Positions 3,451 to 16,045 of a DNA stretch of 16,099 nucleotides are shown here, in pieces. This DNA is from a virus (Duplodnaviria > Heunggongvirae > Uroviricota > Caudoviricetes). A program made the position numbers and the translations under genes. The stretch's first letter is position 1, and each line of letters begins with the position of its first letter. The notes under the pieces are model-generated. The model was not told the DNA's origin, ran no database searches, and saw only the letters and a program-made list of their open reading frames with translations. The DNA lies in the IMG/VR virus record IMGVR_UViG_2802429227_000005, positions 1 through 16,099 of that record; one strand, written 5' to 3'.

Positions 3451-3593
3451 ATCGCATTCAGATATTTGTTTTGATTCACTGAAGGAAAAGAATTTCTCTT
3501 AAGCAATTCCTCTCTCGATGGCATTGGCTTTACGCGTTGGCGAATAATCATTTCTGCCGGAAGAATGCCGGGATTGTATGCAAGTCCTCTCAT
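3429..3593 (-). CDS. Hypothetical small protein (54 aa; below the ORF-track cutoff)
   Basis: Manual translation: [54 protein letters not shown]; GAGGA Shine-Dalgarno 7 nt upstream of the ATG; fills the gap between flanking genes. Confidence 0.3.
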
Positions 3594-3609
3594 GGTAAAT
3601 TCCTCTTTG

Positions 3610-3924
3610 TTAATTTATTCGTATGCCTGCTCTTTCTTCATCGAGTTTTTTTAGCTTGTATCGCATAGCTCTTACTGAATAAATTGAGCGGCAGGTTGCA
3701 ATTGCTATTTCTTCTGCGGAGAACTTACCGAAAAGTGATACTTCGGCTCTTGTCCAGCGTCTTCCACGAAGTCGGCTAACAATGTCAGCGCCAATCCTTG
3801 TTGCTTTCGCCATTACTGCTTTTTCAGTCCTTCCCAGTTTTTCAGCGATAACTTCAACTGGCATTGTTGTCGCTACTTCGCGCAAGAAATCGACTTCCCA
3901 TTTCTCCCATGGAGTCTTTTTCAT
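3610..3924 (-). CDS. Hypothetical protein (104 aa) with two tandem W-x3-E...L repeats, possibly HTH/Myb-like DNA binding
   Basis: Internal repeat visible in the translation ([32 protein letters not shown] and [31 protein letters not shown]); immediately downstream of the Gp157-like gene. Confidence 0.5.
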
Positions 3925-5612: not shown

Positions 5613-5693
5613 CTTTCTCCTGTTCTTTGTGCTGATTGAGCATTTTGTTCATCTGACGAATGAATTCTTCGTCTGACCAGTTATCTGTAAAAC

Positions 5694-5846
5694 TCATTTC
5701 CTGCGATACCACGGAAGGTTGATAGCTGATTTCATCGCTTTATTTGCTTCAAGCCACATTTTGGAATCACCAATAAATCTGGCTATTACTGCTTTGTTCT
5801 GTGCAGCACGAAGCATCTGGTGATTAATGGCTATTTCATTGCGCAT
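5694..5846 (-). CDS. Small hypothetical protein (50 aa) in the kil position
   Basis: Manual translation: MRNEIAINHQMLRAAQNKAVIARFIGDSKMWLEANKAMKSAINLPWYRRK; start overlaps the 3' end of the CIII-like gene; between cIII-like and the recombination genes as kil is in lambda. Confidence 0.3.
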   Translation of the reverse strand: MRNEIAINHQMLRAAQNKAVIARFIGDSKMWLEANKAMKSAINLPWYRRK

Positions 5847-5965
5847 AACGCCTCCAGTTGTTTCTTTGCTGCTCTGATTAATTGTTTAACTCGGCGTGAT
5901 AATTCAGATTCGTGCGGGTAGAAAGCGGACATGACGCCGCTACCCGCGAGCTGAAAGTGCATCAT
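5831..5965 (-). CDS. cIII: CIII-like protein (44 aa; putative FtsH inhibitor that would stabilise CII)
   Basis: Translation MMHFQLAGSGVMSAFYPHESELSRRVKQLIRAAKKQLEALCAMK aligns in pattern with lambda CIII (...AGWPVAGCPSESLLERITRKLRDGWKRL...); GGAG 6 nt upstream of the ATG-ATG. The ORF-track entry 5831..6070 has a longer, probably spurious N-terminal extension. Confidence 0.5.
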   Translation of the reverse strand: MMHFQLAGSGVMSAFYPHESELSRRVKQLIRAAKKQLEALCAMK

Positions 5966-6025
5966 GGGTAACTCCTTATATTTGATTGCATAACGAAAAC
6001 GCCTCGAGTGAAGCGTTATTGGTAT

Positions 6026-6055
6026 GCATATAAAAAGGCCCTCACATTGGAGGGC
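6026..6055 (-). terminator. Rho-independent terminator candidate in the PL operon (between ral and cIII-like)
   Basis: Minus strand GCCCTC-CAATGT-GAGGGC (6-bp stem) followed by CTTTTTATAT. Confidence 0.5.
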
Positions 6056-6191
6056 AAAGAAGATTTCCAATAATCAGAACAAGTCGGCTCCTGTTTAGTT
6101 ACGAGCGACATTGCTCCGTGTATTCACTCGTTGGAATGAATACACAGTGCAGTGTTTATTCTGTTGTTTATGCCAAAAATAAAGGCCACCA

Positions 6192-6392
6192 TCAGGCAGC
6201 CTTGTTATTCTGTTTACCAAGTTCTCTGGCAATCATTGCCGTAGTTCGTATTGCCCATTTATCGACATATTTCCCATCCTCCATTACAGGAAACATTTCT
6301 TCAGGCTTAACCATGCATTCCGATTGCAGCTTGCATCAATTGCATCGCTTGAATTGTCCACACCATTGATTTTTATCAATAGTCGTAGTCAT
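6192..6392 (-). pseudogene. ral: ral-like restriction-alleviation gene interrupted by an in-frame TGA at codon 19 (6336..6338)
   Basis: Minus-strand frame reads MTTTIDKNQWCGQFKRCN-TGA-CKLQSECMVKPEEMFPVMEDGKYVDKWAIRTTAMIARELGKQNNKAA: 66 codons in one frame with a single internal stop. The family assignment is from memory of lambda Ral. Confidence 0.5.
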
Positions 6393-6462
6393 ACGGATAG
6401 TCCTGGTATTGTTCCATCACATCCTGAGGATGCTCTTCGAACTCTTCAAATTCTTCTTCCAT
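6376..6462 (-). CDS. Very small acidic ORF (28 aa), orf28-like, overlapping the ral start
   Basis: Manual translation MEEEFEEFEEHPQDVMEQYQDYPYDYDY; AAGGTGA Shine-Dalgarno 5 nt upstream; its stop overlaps the ral ATG (6390..6392); position matches the small ORF between sieB/N and ral in lambda. Confidence 0.4.
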   Translation of the reverse strand: MEEEFEEFEEHPQDVMEQYQDYPYDYDY

Positions 6463-6608
6463 ATATCACCTTAAATAGTGGATTGCGGTAGTAAAGATTG
6501 TGCCTGTCTTTTAACCACATCAGGCTCGGTGGTTCTCGTGTACCCCTACAGCGAGAAATCGGATAAACTCTATTCACCCCCTACAGAGAGAATGATGGAG
6601 ATTCACCG

Positions 6609-7148
6609 ATGAGTAACTGGTGGCAGGAACTATTACGTTTCTTCCTGCGTGGTCTTACGCTACAACAGTTAATTCATATGCTTATTATTTTAATTGCCTT
6701 GATAATAATCACCCCTGCATCAATTAAAGAGTGGGTAGATATAAGGAACCCAGAAATACTTCCAGATCACTGGATGTATTACGCAATGCTTTTGTGTATC
6801 AGTTATGTTCTGAACAGGGTGATGGAGTTTATATTTCTGGCATCTTCAGACAGATATAAAAAATATCTCAGTAAGAGAGATGAGGCTAAAGTAATTGTGG
6901 AGACTGAGCGCCTGTTCAATTCTCTGAGTATTCAGGAAAAAGAGGTTTTAGCATTTGCTGTTATGGCAAATAACAAAATCGTACTTAAGCACGGCGATCC
7001 GGTCGCTTTATCTCTTATGAGAAAAGGCCTTCTCCATCGCTCAGGTGTGACTTACAGCGCGTCAGGTAAAGAGAAATTTGTTATACCTGACGTCTGGTTC
7101 CATGAGTGTTATATGCGCTTTGCTGGTAAAGCTGATGAGCTAATTTAG
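6609..7148 (+). CDS. sieB: Superinfection-exclusion protein B-like membrane protein (179 aa)
   Basis: N-terminal transmembrane segment (LIHMLIILIALIIITPA); rightward gene embedded in the leftward PL operon and ending 21 bp from the 3' end of N, as sieB does in lambda. Assignment is positional and topological, not by sequence identity. Confidence 0.45.
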   Translation: MSNWWQELLRFFLRGLTLQQLIHMLIILIALIIITPASIKEWVDIRNPEILPDHWMYYAMLLCISYVLNRVMEFIFLASSDRYKKYLSKRDEAKVIVETERLFNSLSIQEKEVLAFAVMANNKIVLKHGDPVALSLMRKGLLHRSGVTYSASGKEKFVIPDVWFHECYMRFAGKADELI

Positions 7149-7169
7149 TTCCTCGACGGCGGGGGATCG

Positions 7170-7442
7170 TCACCTCGCTGTCAGTTGTTTTGATTTCCGG
7201 TAGCCTGCCGCGTAAATGGCTACGTTTGGCAGGCAAATACTTCCACTGCATTCATCTGCCTTCTTGCAGCAAAGGCTTCCTAGTGATGCTGCTTTGTCTG
7301 CTCTGACGCAACCAGAGAGCTTTAGCGCAATTTTTCGCGCCAGTGCTTCATTACTGCGTCGCTCGGCAATAAGTTCTGCTCTGCGAGCTTTGTAGCGGCT
7401 TTTTGCCGTACCTTTGGATTCTTTCCAGACAATGGTTACCAT
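7170..7442 (-). CDS. N: N-like transcription antiterminator with an arginine-rich motif, phage-21 type (90 aa from the ATG at 7442)
   Basis: Arg-rich N-terminal segment GTAKSRYKARRAELIAERR matches the phi21 N RNA-binding peptide as I recall it; C-terminus YAAGYRKSKQLTAR resembles P22 gp24; GGAGA Shine-Dalgarno before the ATG at 7442; a nut site lies upstream. Confidence 0.7.
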   Translation of the reverse strand: MVTIVWKESKGTAKSRYKARRAELIAERRSNEALARKIALKLSGCVRADKAASLGSLCCKKADECSGSICLPNVAIYAAGYRKSKQLTAR

Positions 7443-7553
7443 GATGGTCTCCTTTAAGTGGCTTTGGCGCATGACGCGTCGAGGTGCTTATCTTCTCGAT
7501 CGCTGTCTTGCAGCTGCAATTCGCGCCATCCCCAAAACCACTCAAGTTCTGGT

Positions 7554-7593
7554 CTCAACGGTTAGGTTGAGAGTCCGTCGATGTTAAAGAGCC
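7554..7593 (-). promoter_or_regulatory. nutL site: boxA (GGCTCTTTAA) followed by a boxB hairpin (UCUCAAC-CUAACC-GUUGAGA)
   Basis: Minus strand reads GGCTCTTTAACATCGACGGACTCTCAACCTAACCGTTGAGA between PL and N; the boxB loop CUAACC matches the one in nutR. Confidence 0.6.
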
Positions 7594-7638
7594 TGCCAAT
7601 CTGTTCCGTTTGGCTTCCAGCGTCCTGCTGATGGCTTA

Positions 7639-7692
7639 AATTTAAGACTTCTTAATTTATTGGTCAAGTGCATTTTTGAAGAAAACTTAATT
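7639..7692 (-). promoter_or_regulatory. PL promoter (-35 TTGACC at 7662..7667, -10 TAAATT at 7639..7644, minus strand) with two OL operators of P22 type
   Basis: Operator-like TTAAG-N4-CTTAA palindromes at 7642..7655 and TGAAG-N4-CTTAA at 7677..7690, same pattern as the OR sites; 17-bp promoter spacer. Confidence 0.5.
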
Positions 7693-7729
7693 TTATGGAC
7701 GTTAATTTAGTTTGTCTTTGATTTTTAAC

Positions 7730-7756
7730 GGGAAATAAAAAAGGGGCGAAAGCCCC
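7730..7756 (-). terminator. Rho-independent terminator directly after the c2 stop codon (GGGGC-GAAA-GCCCC then T-run)
   Basis: Minus strand GGGGCTTTCGCCCC followed by TTTTTTATTTCC; the stem starts about 1 nt after the c2 stop. Confidence 0.7.
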
Positions 7757-8407
7757 TTAAGGAAGGTTTGCTAGCTTGGCATCAACGACAACGCCAATGA
7801 TTTTACAGTTCCCATTGATTTCAATCATTGGGTATTGTGGATTGAGTGGTTTCAGGAATTTTCTACCGGCATCAATAACTAACTTTTTGAATGTCGCCTC
7901 GTTTTCTCCTTCAAGTTTGGCGACTACCAGCTTTCCATTACGTGGTTCGACTTCTGGGTCGACGAGAATAATCATCCCCTCAGGAATACTCAGTCCTGCC
8001 GGGGCAGTCATTGAATCGCCTTTAACGTCGAGCCAAAAAGAGTCTTCAGAACAATCTACCGTTGTGTCGTACCAGTTATCTATTGCACGCCTATGATATG
8101 GCTCTACAGCTTCCATCCAACATCCTGCGCTTACCCAACTAATTAGAGGATACGAACCTCTTGGATCATGCCTGCTGTGATAGGCAATGTTTGAAAGACT
8201 ATCCTCTCCTTTCAACAGGTAATCAGGGGAGCACTGCAAAGCCTTGGCTAAGGCCAATAGGTTTTCGCCATTGGGCTCAGTTTCAGATCGCTCCCACTGG
8301 GAAATAGCAACATTAGACACGCCAACCATCTTGCCAAGGGCAGCCTGCCTAATCTTGAGTTCTTTTCTGCGAGCGCGAATACGCTCACCCATCAGTTGTG
8401 TATTCAT
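7757..8407 (-). CDS. c2: Phage repressor, P22 C2 type (HTH_XRE N-terminal domain plus LexA/S24-like C-terminal domain; 216 aa)
   Basis: Translation MNTQLMGERIRARRKELKIRQAALGKMVGVSNVAISQWERSETEP... matches the P22 c2 repressor almost residue for residue as I recall it; C-terminal GDSM and K (Ser-Lys dyad) self-cleavage motifs are present. Confidence 0.9.
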   Translation of the reverse strand: MNTQLMGERIRARRKELKIRQAALGKMVGVSNVAISQWERSETEPNGENLLALAKALQCSPDYLLKGEDSLSNIAYHSRHDPRGSYPLISWVSAGCWMEAVEPYHRRAIDNWYDTTVDCSEDSFWLDVKGDSMTAPAGLSIPEGMIILVDPEVEPRNGKLVVAKLEGENEATFKKLVIDAGRKFLKPLNPQYPMIEINGNCKIIGVVVDAKLANLP

Positions 8408-8473
8408 AGTTAAGACATCTTAAATAAACTTGACTTAAGATTCCTTTGGTGGATAATTTAAGTGTTCTTTAAT
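8408..8473 (+). promoter_or_regulatory. OR operator triplet with PR (-35 TTGACT at 8430..8435, -10 GATAAT at 8453..8458) and divergent PRM
   Basis: Three TTAAG-N4-CTT(A/T)(A/G) palindromes at 8410..8423, 8435..8448 and 8458..8471, spaced about 23-25 bp apart, overlapping PR; OR3 abuts the c2 start codon. Confidence 0.7.
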
Positions 8474-8487
8474 TTCGGAGCGAGTCT

Positions 8488-8673
8488 ATGTACAAAAAAG
8501 ATGTTATTGACCACTTCGGAACCCAGCGTGCTGTTGCTAAAGCACTAGGCATTAGCGATGCAGCAGTCTCTCAGTGGAAAGAAGTTATCCCAGAGAAAGA
8601 CGCCTATCGATTGGAAATCGTTACAGCTGGCGCCCTGAAGTATCAAGAAAGTGCTTACCGCCAAGCGGCATAA
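8488..8673 (+). CDS. cro: Cro repressor, P22 type (61 aa)
   Basis: Translation MYKKDVIDHFGTQRAVAKALGISDAAVSQWKEVIPEKDAYRLEIVTAGALKYQESAYRQAA matches P22 Cro as I recall it; GGAG Shine-Dalgarno; divergent from c2 across OR. Confidence 0.85.
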   Translation: MYKKDVIDHFGTQRAVAKALGISDAAVSQWKEVIPEKDAYRLEIVTAGALKYQESAYRQAA

Positions 8674-8680
8674 GCAAATT

Positions 8681-8720
8681 GCTCTTTAACAGTTCTGGCC
8701 TTTCACCTCTAACCGGGTGA
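8681..8720 (+). promoter_or_regulatory. nutR site: boxA (GCTCTTTAACA) plus a phi21-type boxB hairpin (TCACC-TCTAACC-GGGTGA)
   Basis: Read directly downstream of cro; boxB shares the CUAACC loop with nutL. Confidence 0.65.
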
Positions 8721-8778
8721 GCAAACATCAGCGGCAAATCCATTGGGTGTGCCGCTATAACTCAATATCAATATAGGA

Positions 8779-8811
8779 AAATTAACAAATGGCACAAGCA
8801 AGCTACAGCAA
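8779..8811 (-). promoter_or_regulatory. pRE-like CII-dependent promoter: TTGC-N6-TTGC (8798..8811) then 13 nt then -10 TAATTT (8779..8784), leftward
   Basis: Minus strand GCTTGCTGTAGCTTGC-TTGTGCCATTTGT-TAATTT; the TTGC repeats lie in the first codons of the cII-like gene, as in lambda pRE. Confidence 0.55.
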
Positions 8812-9085
8812 GCCAACACAGCGAGAAATTGATCGCGCTGAAACTGATTTACTCATCAACCTGTCAACGCTTACCCAGCGCGGTCTGGCAAAGATGATTG
8901 GCTGTCATGAATCGAAGATAAGCAGAACGGACTGGAGATTTATTGCTTCGGTCTTGTGTGCTTTCGGAATGGCATCAGACATCAGTCCGATTAGCAGGGC
9001 TTTTAAGTATGCGCTTGATGAAATCACAAAGAAAAAATCCCCGGTGGCCGCCGGGGACTCTAAGCAAATTGATATGCAATTCTGA
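8789..9085 (+). CDS. c1: CII-like transcriptional activator (P22 c1 type; 98 aa)
   Basis: Pattern similarity to lambda CII: ...ESKISRTDWRF... against ...KSQISRWKRDW..., and C-terminus TKKKSPVAAGDSKQIDMQF against TNKKRPAATERSEQIQMEF; position after cro and nutR. Confidence 0.75.
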   Translation: MAQASYSKPTQREIDRAETDLLINLSTLTQRGLAKMIGCHESKISRTDWRFIASVLCAFGMASDISPISRAFKYALDEITKKKSPVAAGDSKQIDMQF

Positions 9086-9108
9086 GGGAATTACTGGATC
9101 AATCCACA
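9031..9108 (-). ncRNA. OOP-like antisense RNA candidate (about 78 nt), with an extended -10 promoter and a terminator inside the 3' end of the cII-like gene
   Basis: Minus-strand hairpin CCCCGG-CGGCCA-CCGGGG (plus 9039..9056) followed by ATTTTTTC; about 77 nt upstream on the minus strand is TGtCATAAT (plus 9115..9123). Geometry mirrors lambda pO/OOP. Confidence 0.5.
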
Positions 9109-9117
9109 GGAGTCATT

Positions 9118-9279
9118 ATGACAAAACGTCGTAAGAAATACCAGGAAAAAGAAGAGATTCGACACCCTGATTCACCTGAGGGATTAGTGGTAGCCGCAGC
9201 AAATAACAGGGCGTTCGCAGAGCGCCTTGTTGGTGTTTACAGACTAGCCAAAGCAGGAGTGAAACATGGGCGTCGTTAA
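9118..9279 (+). CDS. Hypothetical small basic protein (53 aa; below the ORF-track cutoff) between c1 and the O-like gene
   Basis: Manual translation [53 protein letters not shown]; strong AGGAG Shine-Dalgarno 5 nt upstream of the ATG; overlaps the O-like start by 14 nt in another frame. Confidence 0.3.
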   Translation: MTKRRKKYQEKEEIRHPDSPEGLVVAAANNRAFAERLVGVYRLAKAGVKHGRR

Positions 9280-10096
9280 GTTAGCTGATTACAGGCCTCA
9301 ACTGGAGGTCGTGGAGCATCGCGTGGCAGAACTCGAAGATGGCTACACTCGGACTGCAAACACACTGTTAGAAGCCGCCATGCTTTCTGGACTTACTCTA
9401 CATCAGTTACTGATTGTTATGGCTGTGTGGCGCAAGACATACGGTTACAACAAAAAAATAGATTGGATCGGAAACGAACAGTTCGCTGAACTCACTGGCA
9501 TGGCACCAACCAAATGCTCTACCGCCAAAAACGAGCTTATCAGAATGGGAGTTCTCATTCAGGTGGGGCGTCAAGTTGGTATGAATACAAACATTTCCGA
9601 GTGGAAAACGAAAGTTAACGGATTCGGTAAAACATTTACCAATTCGGTAAAACAAACCTTCACCAAATCGGTAAAAAGCAATTTACCGAATCAGTCAAAC
9701 ACAAAAGACAATATACAAAAGACAATAAATACAAATACCCCCTTACCCCCTAACGGGGGCGGCGATGGGCAGGTTAAACCTGAACGTCGCAAGGCAGAAC
9801 GAATCGACTACGAATCCTTCCTGAACGCCTACAACACCGAAGTCGGTGACAGACTTCCACATGCTGTTGCGGTCAACGAGAAACGCAAACGCCGCCTGAA
9901 GAAAATCATCCCGCAACTGAAAACGCCAAACGTGGACGGTTTCAGAGCGTATGTCAGGGCGTTTGTGCATCAGGCCAAGCCGTTTTACTTCGGAGACAAC
10001 GACACGGGCTGGACGGCAGATTTTGATTACCTGCTGAGGGAAGATTCGTTAACGGGAGTGCGGGAAGGGAAGTTTGCAGACAGGGGGATTGCATGA
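9266..10096 (+). CDS. O: Replication initiator, lambda O-like N-terminal domain (P22 gene 18 type; 276 aa)
   Basis: N-terminal region aligns with lambda O ([18 protein letters not shown]...WRKTYGYNK...NISEW against VADLDDGYARLSNMLLEA...LRKTYGWNK...NISEW); iterons inside the gene. Confidence 0.8.
9622..9737. repeat. Origin of replication inside the O-like gene: ATTCGGTAAAAC iterons followed by an AT-rich stretch
   Basis: Direct repeats ATTCGGTAAAAC at 9622..9633 and 9642..9653, degenerate AATCGGTAAAAA at 9666..9677, inverted TTTACCGAAT at 9682..9691, then AT-rich 9700..9737. Confidence 0.6.
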
Positions 10097-14203: not shown

Positions 14204-14388
14204 ACGCCACAATTCAAACGATACCAGAGCTTCTTATCCAGACACGAGGCAATCAGACCGAAGTGGCGAGGATGCTTTCCTGCGCAAGAGGAACAGTGCT
14301 CAAGTACAACCGAGACAGCAAAGGCGAGCGTCACGTAATAGTTAACGGCGTCCTGATGGTCACGCCAGGCAAAAAGGGAAGACGATGA
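14200..14388 (+). CDS. ninH: NinH-like small HTH protein (62 aa)
   Basis: TIPELLIQTRGNQTEVARMLSCARGTVLKYNRDSKGERHVIVNGVLMV against lambda NinH TIPDMLVEAYGNQTEVARRLKCSRGTVRKYVDDKDGKMHAIVNDVLMV. Confidence 0.7.
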   Translation: MNATIQTIPELLIQTRGNQTEVARMLSCARGTVLKYNRDSKGERHVIVNGVLMVTPGKKGRR

Positions 14389-14903
14389 GCATAAGAGAGC
14401 TAAACCTCACCAAAGAACAGCACGATTGGCTGAATGGCTGGCTTGAACTGTGGGGCGCATGGGTTTATTCAGGTCGTCTGGAAAAGCGCATGAGCAGCGT
14501 AATAGCGAAGTTCATGGAGAGCGTAGAGCCGGGAAGAGTTATGACAAGGCCAATGTGCAATGATGATGATGGAATGTTGATTTCTCAGGTCGTCGATTCT
14601 GTCATGTGCATTGACAAGAAAGCCTTTGGCATCCTCCTCAGCTACTACGCTCATGGTTCATCTAAGCGAGCAATTGCATCCTACTATCACGCGACTGCAA
14701 AGCCACGCAAGATGTGTGGACGCGGTGGCGAGGGATGGAGAAAACCTTCACTGGCAACCTGTAGAAACGAAATTGACGATATCCTGAAAGCGTCATTATT
14801 TGTTTTGTACCAACCAATGCAAAATGCTTTCAAAATGCGTAAACGTGTTGAGAAAGTTAAGCATGTTGCTGTTAAAAGCCTTGACATGCAATTAGCCATT
14901 TAG
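14385..14903 (+). CDS. Q: Late-gene antiterminator Q, non-lambda type (172 aa)
   Basis: Last gene before a PR'-like promoter and the lysis cassette; N-terminal LELWGAWV motif and Cys-rich segment resemble non-lambda Q families as I recall them; ATGA-coupled to ninH. Confidence 0.55.
   Translation: MSIRELNLTKEQHDWLNGWLELWGAWVYSGRLEKRMSSVIAKFMESVEPGRVMTRPMCNDDDGMLISQVVDSVMCIDKKAFGILLSYYAHGSSKRAIASYYHATAKPRKMCGRGGEGWRKPSLATCRNEIDDILKASLFVLYQPMQNAFKMRKRVEKVKHVAVKSLDMQLAI
14678..14710 (-). promoter_or_regulatory. paQ-like CII-dependent antisense promoter inside Q: TTGC-N6-TTGC (14697..14710) then 13 nt then -10 TAGGAT (14678..14683)
   Basis: Minus strand TTGCGTGGCTTTGC-AGTCGCGTGATAG-TAGGAT; identical spacing architecture to the pRE-like site at 8779..8811. 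Confidence 0.45.
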
Positions 14904-14910
14904 CCATAAT
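14881..14910 (+). promoter_or_regulatory. PR' late promoter candidate (-35 TTGACA at 14881..14886, 18-bp spacer, -10 CATAAT at 14905..14910); qut expected to overlap
   Basis: Consensus-like hexamers overlapping the Q stop codon; oriented toward S/R. Confidence 0.45.
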
Positions 14911-14920
14911 TAGAGGGTAA

Positions 14921-14962
14921 GCTGCCATTAGTGACTCTTAAGTTGCAACGGTGGCTTTTTTT
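14921..14962 (+). terminator. tR'-like terminator candidate: weak hairpin followed by a T7 run (14956..14962)
   Basis: GCCATT...GGTGGC imperfect stem (includes G-U pairs) then TTTTTTT; lies about 45 nt downstream of the predicted PR' start. The hairpin is weak. Confidence 0.3.
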
Positions 14963-15382
14963 GTTTGCACAACAGGTAAGAGCATTGAACCCTCAGACCT
15001 CGCGGAATTGGTGAAAGGTGCCGCGCAGTGCTCTTATCGTTGTGGTGAATGCACAGGCTGATGTGTAAGGGCAAGAATCTTTCGCTGGATTCGGTGTGGC
15101 CACGTAGCCCGCTGTAGGCAGTTGCAGCAAACCGGAGATCAGCACCGGTCGCCACAATCCAAACTGAGCCGTAGCCACTGGCTATCCTGAACTCATCAGT
15201 GATAGTTATGCTGCGGCCTTCTACATATGACCTTCGTGAAAGCGGGTGGCAAGAGGCTGCGCTAACAACCTCATGCCGTTTTGCCCGTGCATATCGGTCA
15301 CGAACAAATCTGATTACTAAACACAGTAGCCTGGATTTGTTCTATCAGTAATCGACCTTATTCCTAATTAAATAGAGCAAAT

Positions 15383-15396
15383 CCCCTTATTGGGGG
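15383..15396 (+). promoter_or_regulatory. sdi-like stem-loop (CCCC-TTATT-GGGG) immediately upstream of the dual start of S
   Basis: Hairpin overlapping the Shine-Dalgarno for the Met1/Met3 starts (ATGAAGATG at 15403..15411), as in lambda S translational control. Confidence 0.5.
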
Positions 15397-15402
15397 TAAG
15401 AC

Positions 15403-15726
15403 ATGAAGATGCCAGAAAAACATGACCTGTTAGCTGCCATTCTCGCGGCAAAGGAACAAGGCATCGGGGCAATCCTTGCGTTTGCAATGGCGTACCTTCG
15501 CGGCAGATATAATGGCGGTGCGTTTACAAAAACAGTAATCGACGCAACGATGTGCGCCATTATCGCCTGGTTCATTCGTGACCTTCTCGACTTCGCCGGA
15601 CTAAGTAGCAATCTCGCTTATATAACGAGCGTGTTTATCGGCTACATCGGTACTGACTCGATTGGTTCGCTTATCAAACGCTTCGCTGCTAAAAAAGCCG
15701 GAGTAGAAGATGGTGGAAATCAATAA
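15403..15726 (+). CDS. S: Holin S, lambda type, with dual start (S107 antiholin / S105 holin; 107 aa)
   Basis: Translation [107 protein letters not shown] is essentially lambda S as I recall it. Confidence 0.9.
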
Positions 15727-16045
15727 TCAACGTAAGGCGTTCCTCGATATGCTGGCGTGGTCAGAGGGAACTGATAACGGACGACAGAAAACCAGAAATC
15801 ATGGTTATGACGTCATTGTAGGCGGAGAGCTATTCACTGATTACTCAGATCACCCTCGCAAACTTGTCACGCTAAACCCAAAACTCAAATCAACAGCAGC
15901 CGGGCGCTATCAGCTTCTTTCCCGTTGGTGGGATGCCTATCGTAAGCAGCTTGGCCTGAAAGACTTCTCTCCGAAAAGCCAGGACGCTGTGGCACTGCAA
16001 CAGATTAAAGAGCGTGGCGCTTTACCGATGATTGATCGCGGTGAT
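15710..16045 (+). pseudogene. R: Endolysin R (lambda-type lytic transglycosylase) truncated after codon 112 by an IS2 insertion
   Basis: Translation [42 protein letters not shown]...IKERGALPMIDRGD matches lambda R, then at 16046 the frame runs into IS2 terminal sequence (WICPYISRHLL...) instead of continuing as lambda R does. Confidence 0.85.

What the first reader, a model, noticed from the sequence alone, without database searches (positions are those of the whole stretch)
7170..8720. Mosaic immunity region: phi21-type N and boxB, P22-type repressor, Cro and operators, lambda-type flanking genes
The N protein's arginine-rich motif and both nut boxB loops (CUAACC) look like the phage-21 type, while c2, cro and the TTAAG-N4-CTTAA operators look like P22. 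The ral/orf28/cIII-like genes on one side and S/R on the other are lambda-like. The matching N and boxB specificity argues that the antitermination module travelled as a unit. The window therefore shows at least three recombination junctions between lambdoid modules.
Basis: partly seen in the sequence, partly recalled or inferred. Interest (0 to 1): 0.45.

Follow-up and report, generated by a model that had tools for sequence, protein, structure and literature searches.

The report
Ordinary phage 21 immunity cassette
This stretch is the long-known immunity region of coliphage 21 (repressor, Cro, operators, N antiterminator and its two nut sites), nearly base-for-base identical to phage 21 and sitting in an otherwise shuffled lambdoid prophage, so it is ordinary.

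Summary
It is the native arrangement of phage 21.

- **Match to phage 21:** window 7251-9020 differs from the phage 21 genome (OL657228) at 9 of 1770 bases, in one uninterrupted alignment. That alignment covers N, nutL, pL/OL1-3, cI, OR1-3, cro, nutR and most of cII.
- **Match to HK629:** phage HK629 covers the whole finding (7172-8800) at 99.3% in one piece.
- **Match to P22:** P22 is only a relative. It is 83.6% identical over 7578-8691, from boxA-L to boxA-R. C2 is 94% and Cro 98% identical in protein.
- **The one internal junction:** it lies inside N, at about 7236-7251. The last ~25 codons are the P22/HK620/VT1-Sakai type, not phage 21's lambda-like C-terminus. This N allele already exists in VT1-Sakai (99%) and HK629 (98%).
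- **Flanks:** they are mosaic. A lambda-like ral/orf28 (with ral carrying a stop codon) and an HK97-type kil/cIII lie to the left. A divergent SieB allele sits next to N. HK97/P22-type replication genes and lambda-like S/R lie to the right.

Verdict: already known; low interest.

The parts
6609..7148 (+). SieB-family superinfection exclusion gene (179 aa). It lies just outside the cassette on the left. The internal Met25, the Esc start in P22, is conserved.
   Evidence: Pfam SieB 3e-20 and phrog_1301 3.6e-94. It is 49% identical to P22 SieB. The exact protein occurs in 1363 blocks of public assemblies, next to many different N and immunity types.
7170..7250 (-). 3' end of N: the C-terminal module ending ...GSICLPNVAIYAAGYRKSKQLTAR. 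It is the P22/HK620/VT1-Sakai type, not the phage 21/lambda type. It acts as a recurrent recombination linker.
   Evidence: Phage 21 homology starts at 7251, whereas HK629 and VT1-Sakai run through to 7170-7172. Five prophages with unrelated N N-termini share 6501-7236 at 98-99.6% identity, and all break at 7235/7236.
7251..7442 (-). N codons 1-64: the arginine-rich RNA-binding motif (residues 8-29, bases 7356-7421) and the central region, phage 21 type.
   Evidence: It matches the phage 21 N protein over residues 1-63 except Cys58 (Arg in phage 21). Residues 8-29 are 100% identical to PDB 1NYB. Pfam N_peptide 2.2e-16.
7553..7572 (-). nutL boxB hairpin, stem UCUCAAC/GUUGAGA with loop CUAACC.
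   Evidence: Identical to the annotated phage 21 nutL. Folds at -8.0 kcal/mol.
7583..7592 (-). nutL boxA, GCTCTTTAAC.
   Evidence: 2 copies found, 0.04 expected. P22 homology begins close by, at 7578.
7640..7721 (.). OL1 (7640-7657), OL2 (7675-7692) and OL3 (7704-7721), with pL. The pL transcription start is at about 7632.
   Evidence: Coordinates transferred from the phage 21 annotation (offset -1750). Alignment; pattern test.
7733..7756 (+). GC-rich hairpin terminator just downstream of the cI stop codon; annotated on the + strand in phage 21.
   Evidence: Phage 21 annotation. The sequence reads aaaaaggggcgaaagcccctt.
7757..8407 (-). Prophage repressor CI (216 aa): an N-terminal HTH domain and a C-terminal S24 self-cleavage domain (Ala94-Gly95, Ser132, Lys174 by inspection).
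   Evidence: 100% protein identity to phage 21 and HK629, 94% to P22 C2. Pfam HTH_3 and Peptidase_S24. The DNA-binding domain differs from PDB 2R1J/1ADR (P22 C2) at 2 of 68 residues.
8408..8473 (.). OR3 (8408-8425), OR2 (8433-8450) and OR1 (8456-8473), with divergent pRM and pR.
   Evidence: 100% identical to phage 21; 4 base differences from P22. Pattern test.
8488..8673 (+). Cro (61 aa).
   Evidence: 100% identical to phage 21 Cro; one residue different from P22 Cro, PDB 1RZS. Pfam P22_Cro 5.7e-28.
8681..8690 (+). nutR boxA, GCTCTTTAAC.
   Evidence: P22 homology ends at 8691.
8703..8720 (+). nutR boxB hairpin, UCACCU-CUAACC-GGGUGA.
   Evidence: Identical to the annotated phage 21 nutR. The fold recovers a 6-bp stem with a hexaloop.
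8789..9085 (+). cII. The CII site TTGC-N6-TTGC of pRE lies at 8798-8811 (-). The right-hand edge of the phage 21-identical block falls in its 3' part, at about 9020.
   Evidence: Pfam Phage_CII 2.5e-32. Phage 21 differences cluster at 9021-9105. HK97-type cII homology starts at 8759.

Best explanation
The finding is the intact immunity cassette of coliphage 21 (imm21), carried by a lambdoid or P22-like prophage whose other modules come from other members of the lambdoid gene pool.

**How it works (mechanism inferred from the known biology of 21, P22 and lambda, not tested here)**
- In the lysogen, the 216-aa CI repressor binds OL1-3 and OR1-3. It shuts off pL and pR and regulates its own pRM transcript. 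Its S24 domain allows RecA-stimulated self-cleavage at induction.
- After induction or infection, Cro is made from pR and N from pL.
- N binds the CUAACC-loop boxB hairpins of nutL and nutR RNA through its arginine-rich motif. With the Nus factors bound at boxA, it converts RNA polymerase to a terminator-resistant form that reads through tL and tR1.
- CII activates pRE for the establishment of lysogeny.

**Why P22 looks similar**
- The resemblance reflects old common ancestry of the 21 and P22 repressor/Cro/operator cores (about 16% nucleotide divergence), not a recent exchange.

**The one departure from phage 21**
- The 3' end of N encodes a P22-type C-terminal (RNA polymerase-binding) tail.
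- This conserved ~66-nt segment is shared by N genes with unrelated N-termini. It is the homology patch through which the cassette was joined to its present left arm (sieB-ral).
For: - Phage 21 (OL657228) aligns in a single piece over 7251-9125, with only 9 differences in 7251-9020.
- HK629 aligns over 7172-9296 in a single piece.
- 14 phage records, including lambda imm21, DE3, mEp235 and Kapi1, match the 1.7-kb query at 99% or more.
- Many complete E. coli genomes carry 7172-8800 in one piece at 99.2-99.7%.
- CI and Cro are 100% identical in protein to those of phage 21. The OR region is 100% identical to phage 21's.
- N residues 8-29 equal the phi21 N peptide of PDB 1NYB.
- Both boxA and both boxB elements are identical to the annotated phage 21 nut sites.
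- P22 homology is limited to 7578-8691 at 83.6%.
- The junction inside N is shown.
- The P22/21 operator relationship is old literature: Poteete, Ptashne, Ballivet and Eisen 1980, J Mol Biol 137:81, as cited in PMC1151598. The phage 21 genome paper is PMC9119081.
Against: - Nothing in the sequence contradicts this reading.
- Function (immunity to phage 21, N activity at these nut sites) is inferred from identity, not tested.
- The window differs from phage 21 at two bases between OL2 and OL3 (7699, 7703), one base just before the pRE -10 (8778) and one residue of N (Cys58 versus Arg). The effects of these changes are unknown.
- ral next door is interrupted by a stop codon, so the prophage may carry other defects.
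Confidence: 0.95

Rival explanations
1. One reading: a recombinant in which a phage 21 antitermination module (N, nutL, nutR) was joined to a P22 immC module (c2, cro, operators).
For: C2 and Cro are 94% and 98% identical in protein to those of P22, and the operators are nearly the same. P22 homology stops exactly at the two boxA elements, so the boxB hairpins and N are non-homologous between P22 and the window.
Against: Phage 21 itself has the very same arrangement at 99.5% nucleotide identity, with no break between N and cI. P22 is only 83.6% identical across the core. Any exchange of that kind predates phage 21 and is not a feature of this window.
Confidence: 0.02
2. Laboratory origin: the region comes from lambda imm21 or the DE3 prophage of BL21(DE3)-type strains.
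For: DE3 and lambda imm21 match 7251-8800 at 99.4%. BL21(DE3) genomes appear among the E. coli hits.
Against: The match to DE3 and imm21 stops at 7251, inside N. The window's N tail, SieB allele, HK97-type kil/cIII, DnaB-type replication genes and Q21-like Q are absent from lambda imm21 and DE3. The same hybrid-N cassette is found in many wild E. coli from animals and humans.
Confidence: 0.01
3. The cassette is a decaying remnant of a defective prophage and no longer functions as an immunity switch.
For: ral, about 0.8 kb to the left, carries a premature TGA at codon 19. ea10 is missing relative to lambda and phage 21.
Against: N, cI, cro and cII are all full length. cI and cro are identical in protein to their phage 21 counterparts, and the OR operators and both nut sites are identical to phage 21's. 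Replication, nin, Q and lysis genes are also intact ORFs.
Confidence: 0.1

Closest known systems
Immunity region of coliphage 21 (imm21; OL657228, also in lambda imm21 and DE3)
   Same: The region 7251-9020 is 99.5% identical in nucleotides. The N arginine-rich motif, the OR operators, Cro and CI are identical, and so are boxA and boxB at both nut sites. Gene order is the same.
   Different: The last ~25 codons of N are replaced: the protein is 90 aa with a P22-like tail, against 99 aa with a lambda-like tail in phage 21. The window has a sieB gene between ral and N, which phage 21 lacks. The cII 3' end (9021-9105) is a different allele.
HK629 and VT1-Sakai (CP-933V) N genes, and the HK629 immunity region
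   Same: HK629 matches 7172-9296 in one piece at 98.1%, including the hybrid N (98% protein identity). VT1-Sakai N is 99% identical, and its N-nutL DNA is 97.9% identical over 7170-7634.
   Different: VT1-Sakai has a different repressor and operators beyond 7634. HK629 has a C-to-A change in the nutR boxB loop (8714) and a different gene left of N.
Salmonella phage P22 immC (c2, cro, OL/OR) and gene 24
   Same: The repressor/Cro/operator family is the same: C2 94% and Cro 98% protein identity, with 2 of 68 differences in the DNA-binding domain. The last 24 residues of N are 75% identical (18 of 24) to the C-terminal tail of gp24. sieB sits in the same place.
   Different: Nucleotide identity is only 83.6% and is limited to 7578-8691. 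The N arginine-rich motif and both boxB hairpins are unrelated. SieB is only 49% identical.
Lambda N/nut antitermination system
   Same: [quoted passage not shown]
   Different: The arginine-rich motif and the boxB loop differ (CUAACC hexaloop against lambda's GAAAA pentaloop). The C-terminus is not lambda-like, unlike that of authentic phage 21 N.

Membership tests
Phage 21 immunity cassette (imm21) | Contiguous high nucleotide identity to phage 21 from N through cro and nutR | tested here: met
   7251-9020 shows 9 differences in 1770 nt, in one alignment.
Phage 21 immunity cassette (imm21) | Repressor, Cro and the six operators of phage 21 | tested here: met
   CI and Cro are 100% identical in protein. 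The OR region is 100% identical. The OL region is identical except for two bases (7699, 7703) between OL2 and OL3.
Phage 21 immunity cassette (imm21) | phi21-type N arginine-rich motif with matching CUAACC-loop boxB at both nutL and nutR | tested here: met
   N residues 8-29 equal PDB 1NYB. The boxB sequences are identical to the phage 21 annotation.
Phage 21 immunity cassette (imm21) | Full-length phage 21 N, including its lambda-like C-terminus | tested here: not met
   The C-terminal ~25 residues are P22/HK620-type. The junction lies at 7236-7251. The same allele occurs in HK629 and VT1-Sakai.
Phage 21 immunity cassette (imm21) | Lysogen immune to phage 21 and lambda imm21 | not testable with these tools
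   Needs a superinfection assay.
P22 immC | C2/Cro protein family and TTAAG-N4-CTTAA type operators | tested here: met
   94% and 98% protein identity. The OR region differs at 4 bases.
P22 immC | Near-identity at DNA level to P22, and a gp24-type arginine-rich motif and boxB | tested here: not met
   83.6% nucleotide identity over 7578-8691 only. The arginine-rich motif and the boxB hairpins are unrelated.
Lambdoid N-type processive antitermination | N_peptide family protein, with boxA and a boxB hairpin downstream of both early promoters | tested here: met
   Pfam PF25694 2.2e-16. boxA occurs twice. boxB folds.

The most novel reading that the evidence does not exclude
The only mildly new angle concerns N, which is a sub-genic chimera. 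It combines a phage 21 arginine-rich motif and central region with a P22-type C-terminal tail. The conserved ~66-nt 3' end of N (7170-7236) may serve as a general recombination linker that lets any left arm (sieB/ral) be joined to any immunity cassette. The arginine-rich motif and both boxB hairpins co-vary around one conserved repressor core in 21, P22 and JEP4. If this has not been described systematically, it would be a small addition to lambdoid mosaic theory.
Probability: 0.08. Interest if true: 0.2.

Novelty: already known. Interest (0 to 1): 0.08.

Why it matters
It matters little beyond correct annotation.
- The prophage should be labelled as imm21-type. It is predicted to be immune to phage 21 and lambda imm21, with N of phi21 boxB specificity.
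- The region illustrates well-known lambdoid modular exchange. The junctions fall in short conserved patches: the 3' end of N, boxA, and the region around cII.
- No new mechanism or family is involved.

Tried and rejected
- **Rfam scan of the whole window:** no family reached its threshold.
- **tRNA scan:** none found. Phage 21 and Kapi1 carry tRNA-Asn and tRNA-Thr between Q and the holin gene.
- **Was N the H-19B N?** Rejected. The H-19B arginine-rich motif is RSRRRER (PMC3526286), unlike this one. One sieB-linked prophage (L014) has an N with that motif and the same C-terminal tail.
- **Literature on P22/21 co-immunity:** full-text searches found no explicit statement in the held library. 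Only the citation of Poteete et al. 1980 could be confirmed. Co-immunity itself rests on my own recollection.
- **Was the SieB segment (6587-7171) new DNA?** It gave no megablast hit in the phage collection. Rejected: the exact protein is in 1363 blocks of public assemblies.
- **Is cIII lambda-like?** Rejected.
- **Exact arrangement in complete E. coli genomes:** a search for sieB allele plus hybrid N plus imm21 found only near-misses, the best being JKHS016 at 79% coverage in 2 pieces. This particular permutation is uncommon, but every part of it is common.

Full report
**What is at 7170-8720.**
- The ORF list and sequence show a small leftward gene at 7170-7442, a 216-aa leftward gene at 7757-8407, a 61-aa rightward gene at 8488-8673, and cII at 8789-9085.
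- Pfam assigns them to N_peptide, HTH_3 plus Peptidase_S24, P22_Cro and Phage_CII. PHROGs agrees.
- The real N start is the ATG at 7442, behind AAGGAG, giving 90 aa. This is the length annotated in HK629, HK620 and VT1-Sakai.

- N residues 8-29 (ESKGTAKSRYKARRAELIAERR) are identical to the phi21 N peptide crystallised with boxB in PDB 1NYB.
- nutL boxB (7553-7572, minus strand) and nutR boxB (8703-8720) both fold into hairpins closed by the hexaloop CUAACC.
- Each boxB is preceded by the identical boxA GCTCTTTAAC. There are 2 copies in the window against 0.04 expected.
- TTAAG-N4-CTTAA with at most one mismatch occurs four times, all within the two operator clusters, against 0.55 expected.
- The repressor is 94% and Cro 98% identical to the P22 proteins. 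The repressor's DNA-binding domain differs from the solved P22 C2 domain at two of 68 residues.

**This combination is not a recombinant between phage 21 and P22: it is phage 21.**
- A megablast of 7100-8800 against 50,697 phage records found 14 records at 99% identity or more. They include phage 21 itself, lambda imm21, lambda h434 imm21, DE3, mEp235, Kapi1, phiv205-1 and HK629.
- Against the phage 21 genome (OL657228; PMC9119081) the window aligns in one piece from 7251 to 9125. Only nine differences fall between 7251 and 9020.
- That stretch contains two thirds of N, nutL, pL, OL1-3, the terminator, cI, OR1-3, cro, nutR and most of cII, exactly as annotated in phage 21.
- CI and Cro are 100% identical in protein to those of phage 21, and the OR region is 100% identical in DNA.
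- HK629 covers 7172-9296 in one piece.
- P22 aligns only over 7578-8691 at 83.6%. Its homology starts and stops at the two boxA elements.
- The kinship of the P22 and 21 operators has been in the literature since Poteete, Ptashne, Ballivet and Eisen (1980, J Mol Biol 137:81; citation confirmed in PMC1151598).
- That the two repressors share binding specificity is my recollection. I could not find it stated in the held library.

**The one junction inside the finding.**
- Phage 21 homology ends at 7251, inside N.
- The window's N matches phage 21 N through about residue 63 (apart from Cys58, which is Arg in phage 21) and then switches to ...CSGSICLPNVAIYAAGYRKSKQLTAR.
- That tail resembles the P22 gp24 tail (GSVLLPGVALYAAGHRKSKQITAR). 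Authentic phage 21 N ends like lambda N.
- The allele is not new: VT1-Sakai N is 99% and HK629 N 98% identical.
- HK620 and JEP4 N share the central and C-terminal parts but carry a different, lambda-like arginine-rich motif.

**The left arm.**
- Looking up the adjacent SieB protein in public assemblies returned six prophages. In five of them the sieB allele plus the last ~66 nt of N (window 6501-7236) is 98-99.6% identical to the window, and homology breaks at 7235/7236 in every case.
- In the four that carry a called N and an unrelated immunity region, that N has a completely different N-terminus.
- The 3' end of N is therefore a recurrent homology patch at which left arms and immunity cassettes are exchanged.

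**N and boxB as a unit.**
- Three phage types share the same repressor/Cro core (94% protein identity or more) but have different antitermination specificities:
  - P22 has the motif GNAKTRRHERRRK and GACAAAG/GACAACG-type boxB loops.
  - Phage 21 and the window have the motif GTAKSRYKARRAE and the loop CUAACC.
  - JEP4 has the motif DNARNRRRARRQ and boxB CCGCCGAAATGCGG at both nut sites.
- In each phage the arginine-rich motif and both boxB hairpins change together.
In this window, however, the unit that moved is the entire cassette including the repressor, not an antitermination module on its own.
- VT1-Sakai shows the other possibility. It has the same N-nutL block (97.9% over 7170-7634) next to an unrelated repressor.

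**Flanks.**
- 5648-6150 is 99.4% HK97 (kil, cIII and the downstream region).
- 6028-6586 is 97.3% lambda (ral, orf28). The lambda/21 ea10 gene is missing, with the junction at 6027/6028.
- 6609-7148 is a SieB-family gene only 49% identical to P22 SieB.
- From 8759 rightward, cII, a gp53-like ORF, an O-like initiator and a DnaB-type helicase follow HK97 (91.7%) and P22 (83%).
- Q is 83.8% identical to phage 21 Q at the nucleotide level.
- 15153-16045 is 96.4% lambda S/R.
- The window is thus a typical lambdoid mosaic with well over three junctions. The best single phage match, Kapi1, covers only 65% of it.

**Mechanism.**
- By identity with phage 21 and close kinship with P22 and lambda, CI bound at OL and OR represses pL and pR and maintains lysogeny. 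Its S24 domain (Ala94-Gly95, Ser132, Lys174 by inspection) provides SOS-inducible self-cleavage.
- Cro and N are the first lytic products. N binds the boxB RNA hairpins and, with the Nus factors at boxA, makes RNA polymerase read through the early terminators.
- CII acts at the TTGC-N6-TTGC site of pRE (8798-8811, minus strand).
- These steps are inferred from established knowledge of the family. None was tested here.

**Verdict.**
- The object is the classical imm21 cassette with a known N allele.
- It is widespread: many complete E. coli genomes carry 7172-8800 in one piece at 99.2-99.7%.
- Already known; low interest.

Noticed in passing
window 6336-6338 (ral, 6192-6392, minus strand): ral is 97% identical to lambda ral in DNA but carries a premature TGA in place of Gly19 (KRCN*CKLQ). 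Only a 40-aa ORF, matching Ral residues 27-66, remains open. It is probably a pseudogene.
   Followed up: partly
window 6609-7148 (+): This is a divergent SieB allele: 49% identical to P22 and VT1-Sakai SieB, with a conserved N-terminal 70 aa and Met25 (the Esc start). It has no megablast hit in 50,697 phage records, yet the exact protein is present in 1363 blocks of public assemblies, next to many different N and immunity types.
   Followed up: partly
window 6027/6028: The ea10 (ssb-like) gene present in lambda, phage 21 and VT1-Sakai between cIII and ral is absent here. HK97-type kil/cIII DNA (99.4%) abuts lambda-type ral DNA, with a ~120-bp zone (6028-6150) shared by both.
   Followed up: no
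window 14385-15400: The late antiterminator Q (172 aa, Pfam Phage_antitermQ) is 83.8% identical in DNA to phage 21 Q rather than lambda Q. The Q-to-holin interval has no tRNA genes, unlike phage 21 and Kapi1. It also lacks the HNH endonuclease gene that HK629 carries there.
   Followed up: partly
window 7699, 7703, 8778 and N codon 58 (7269-7271): These are private differences from both phage 21 and HK629: two bases between OL2 and OL3, one base next to the pRE -10, and Cys58 in N where all relatives have Arg. Their effect is unknown.
   Followed up: no
L007 (JEP4) 2272-2490 and 3489-3625; L012: JEP4-type prophages combine a 97%-identical C2-type repressor and Cro with an HK620-type N arginine-rich motif and CCGCCGAAATGCGG boxB hairpins. 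This is a third antitermination specificity around the same repressor core.
   Followed up: partly
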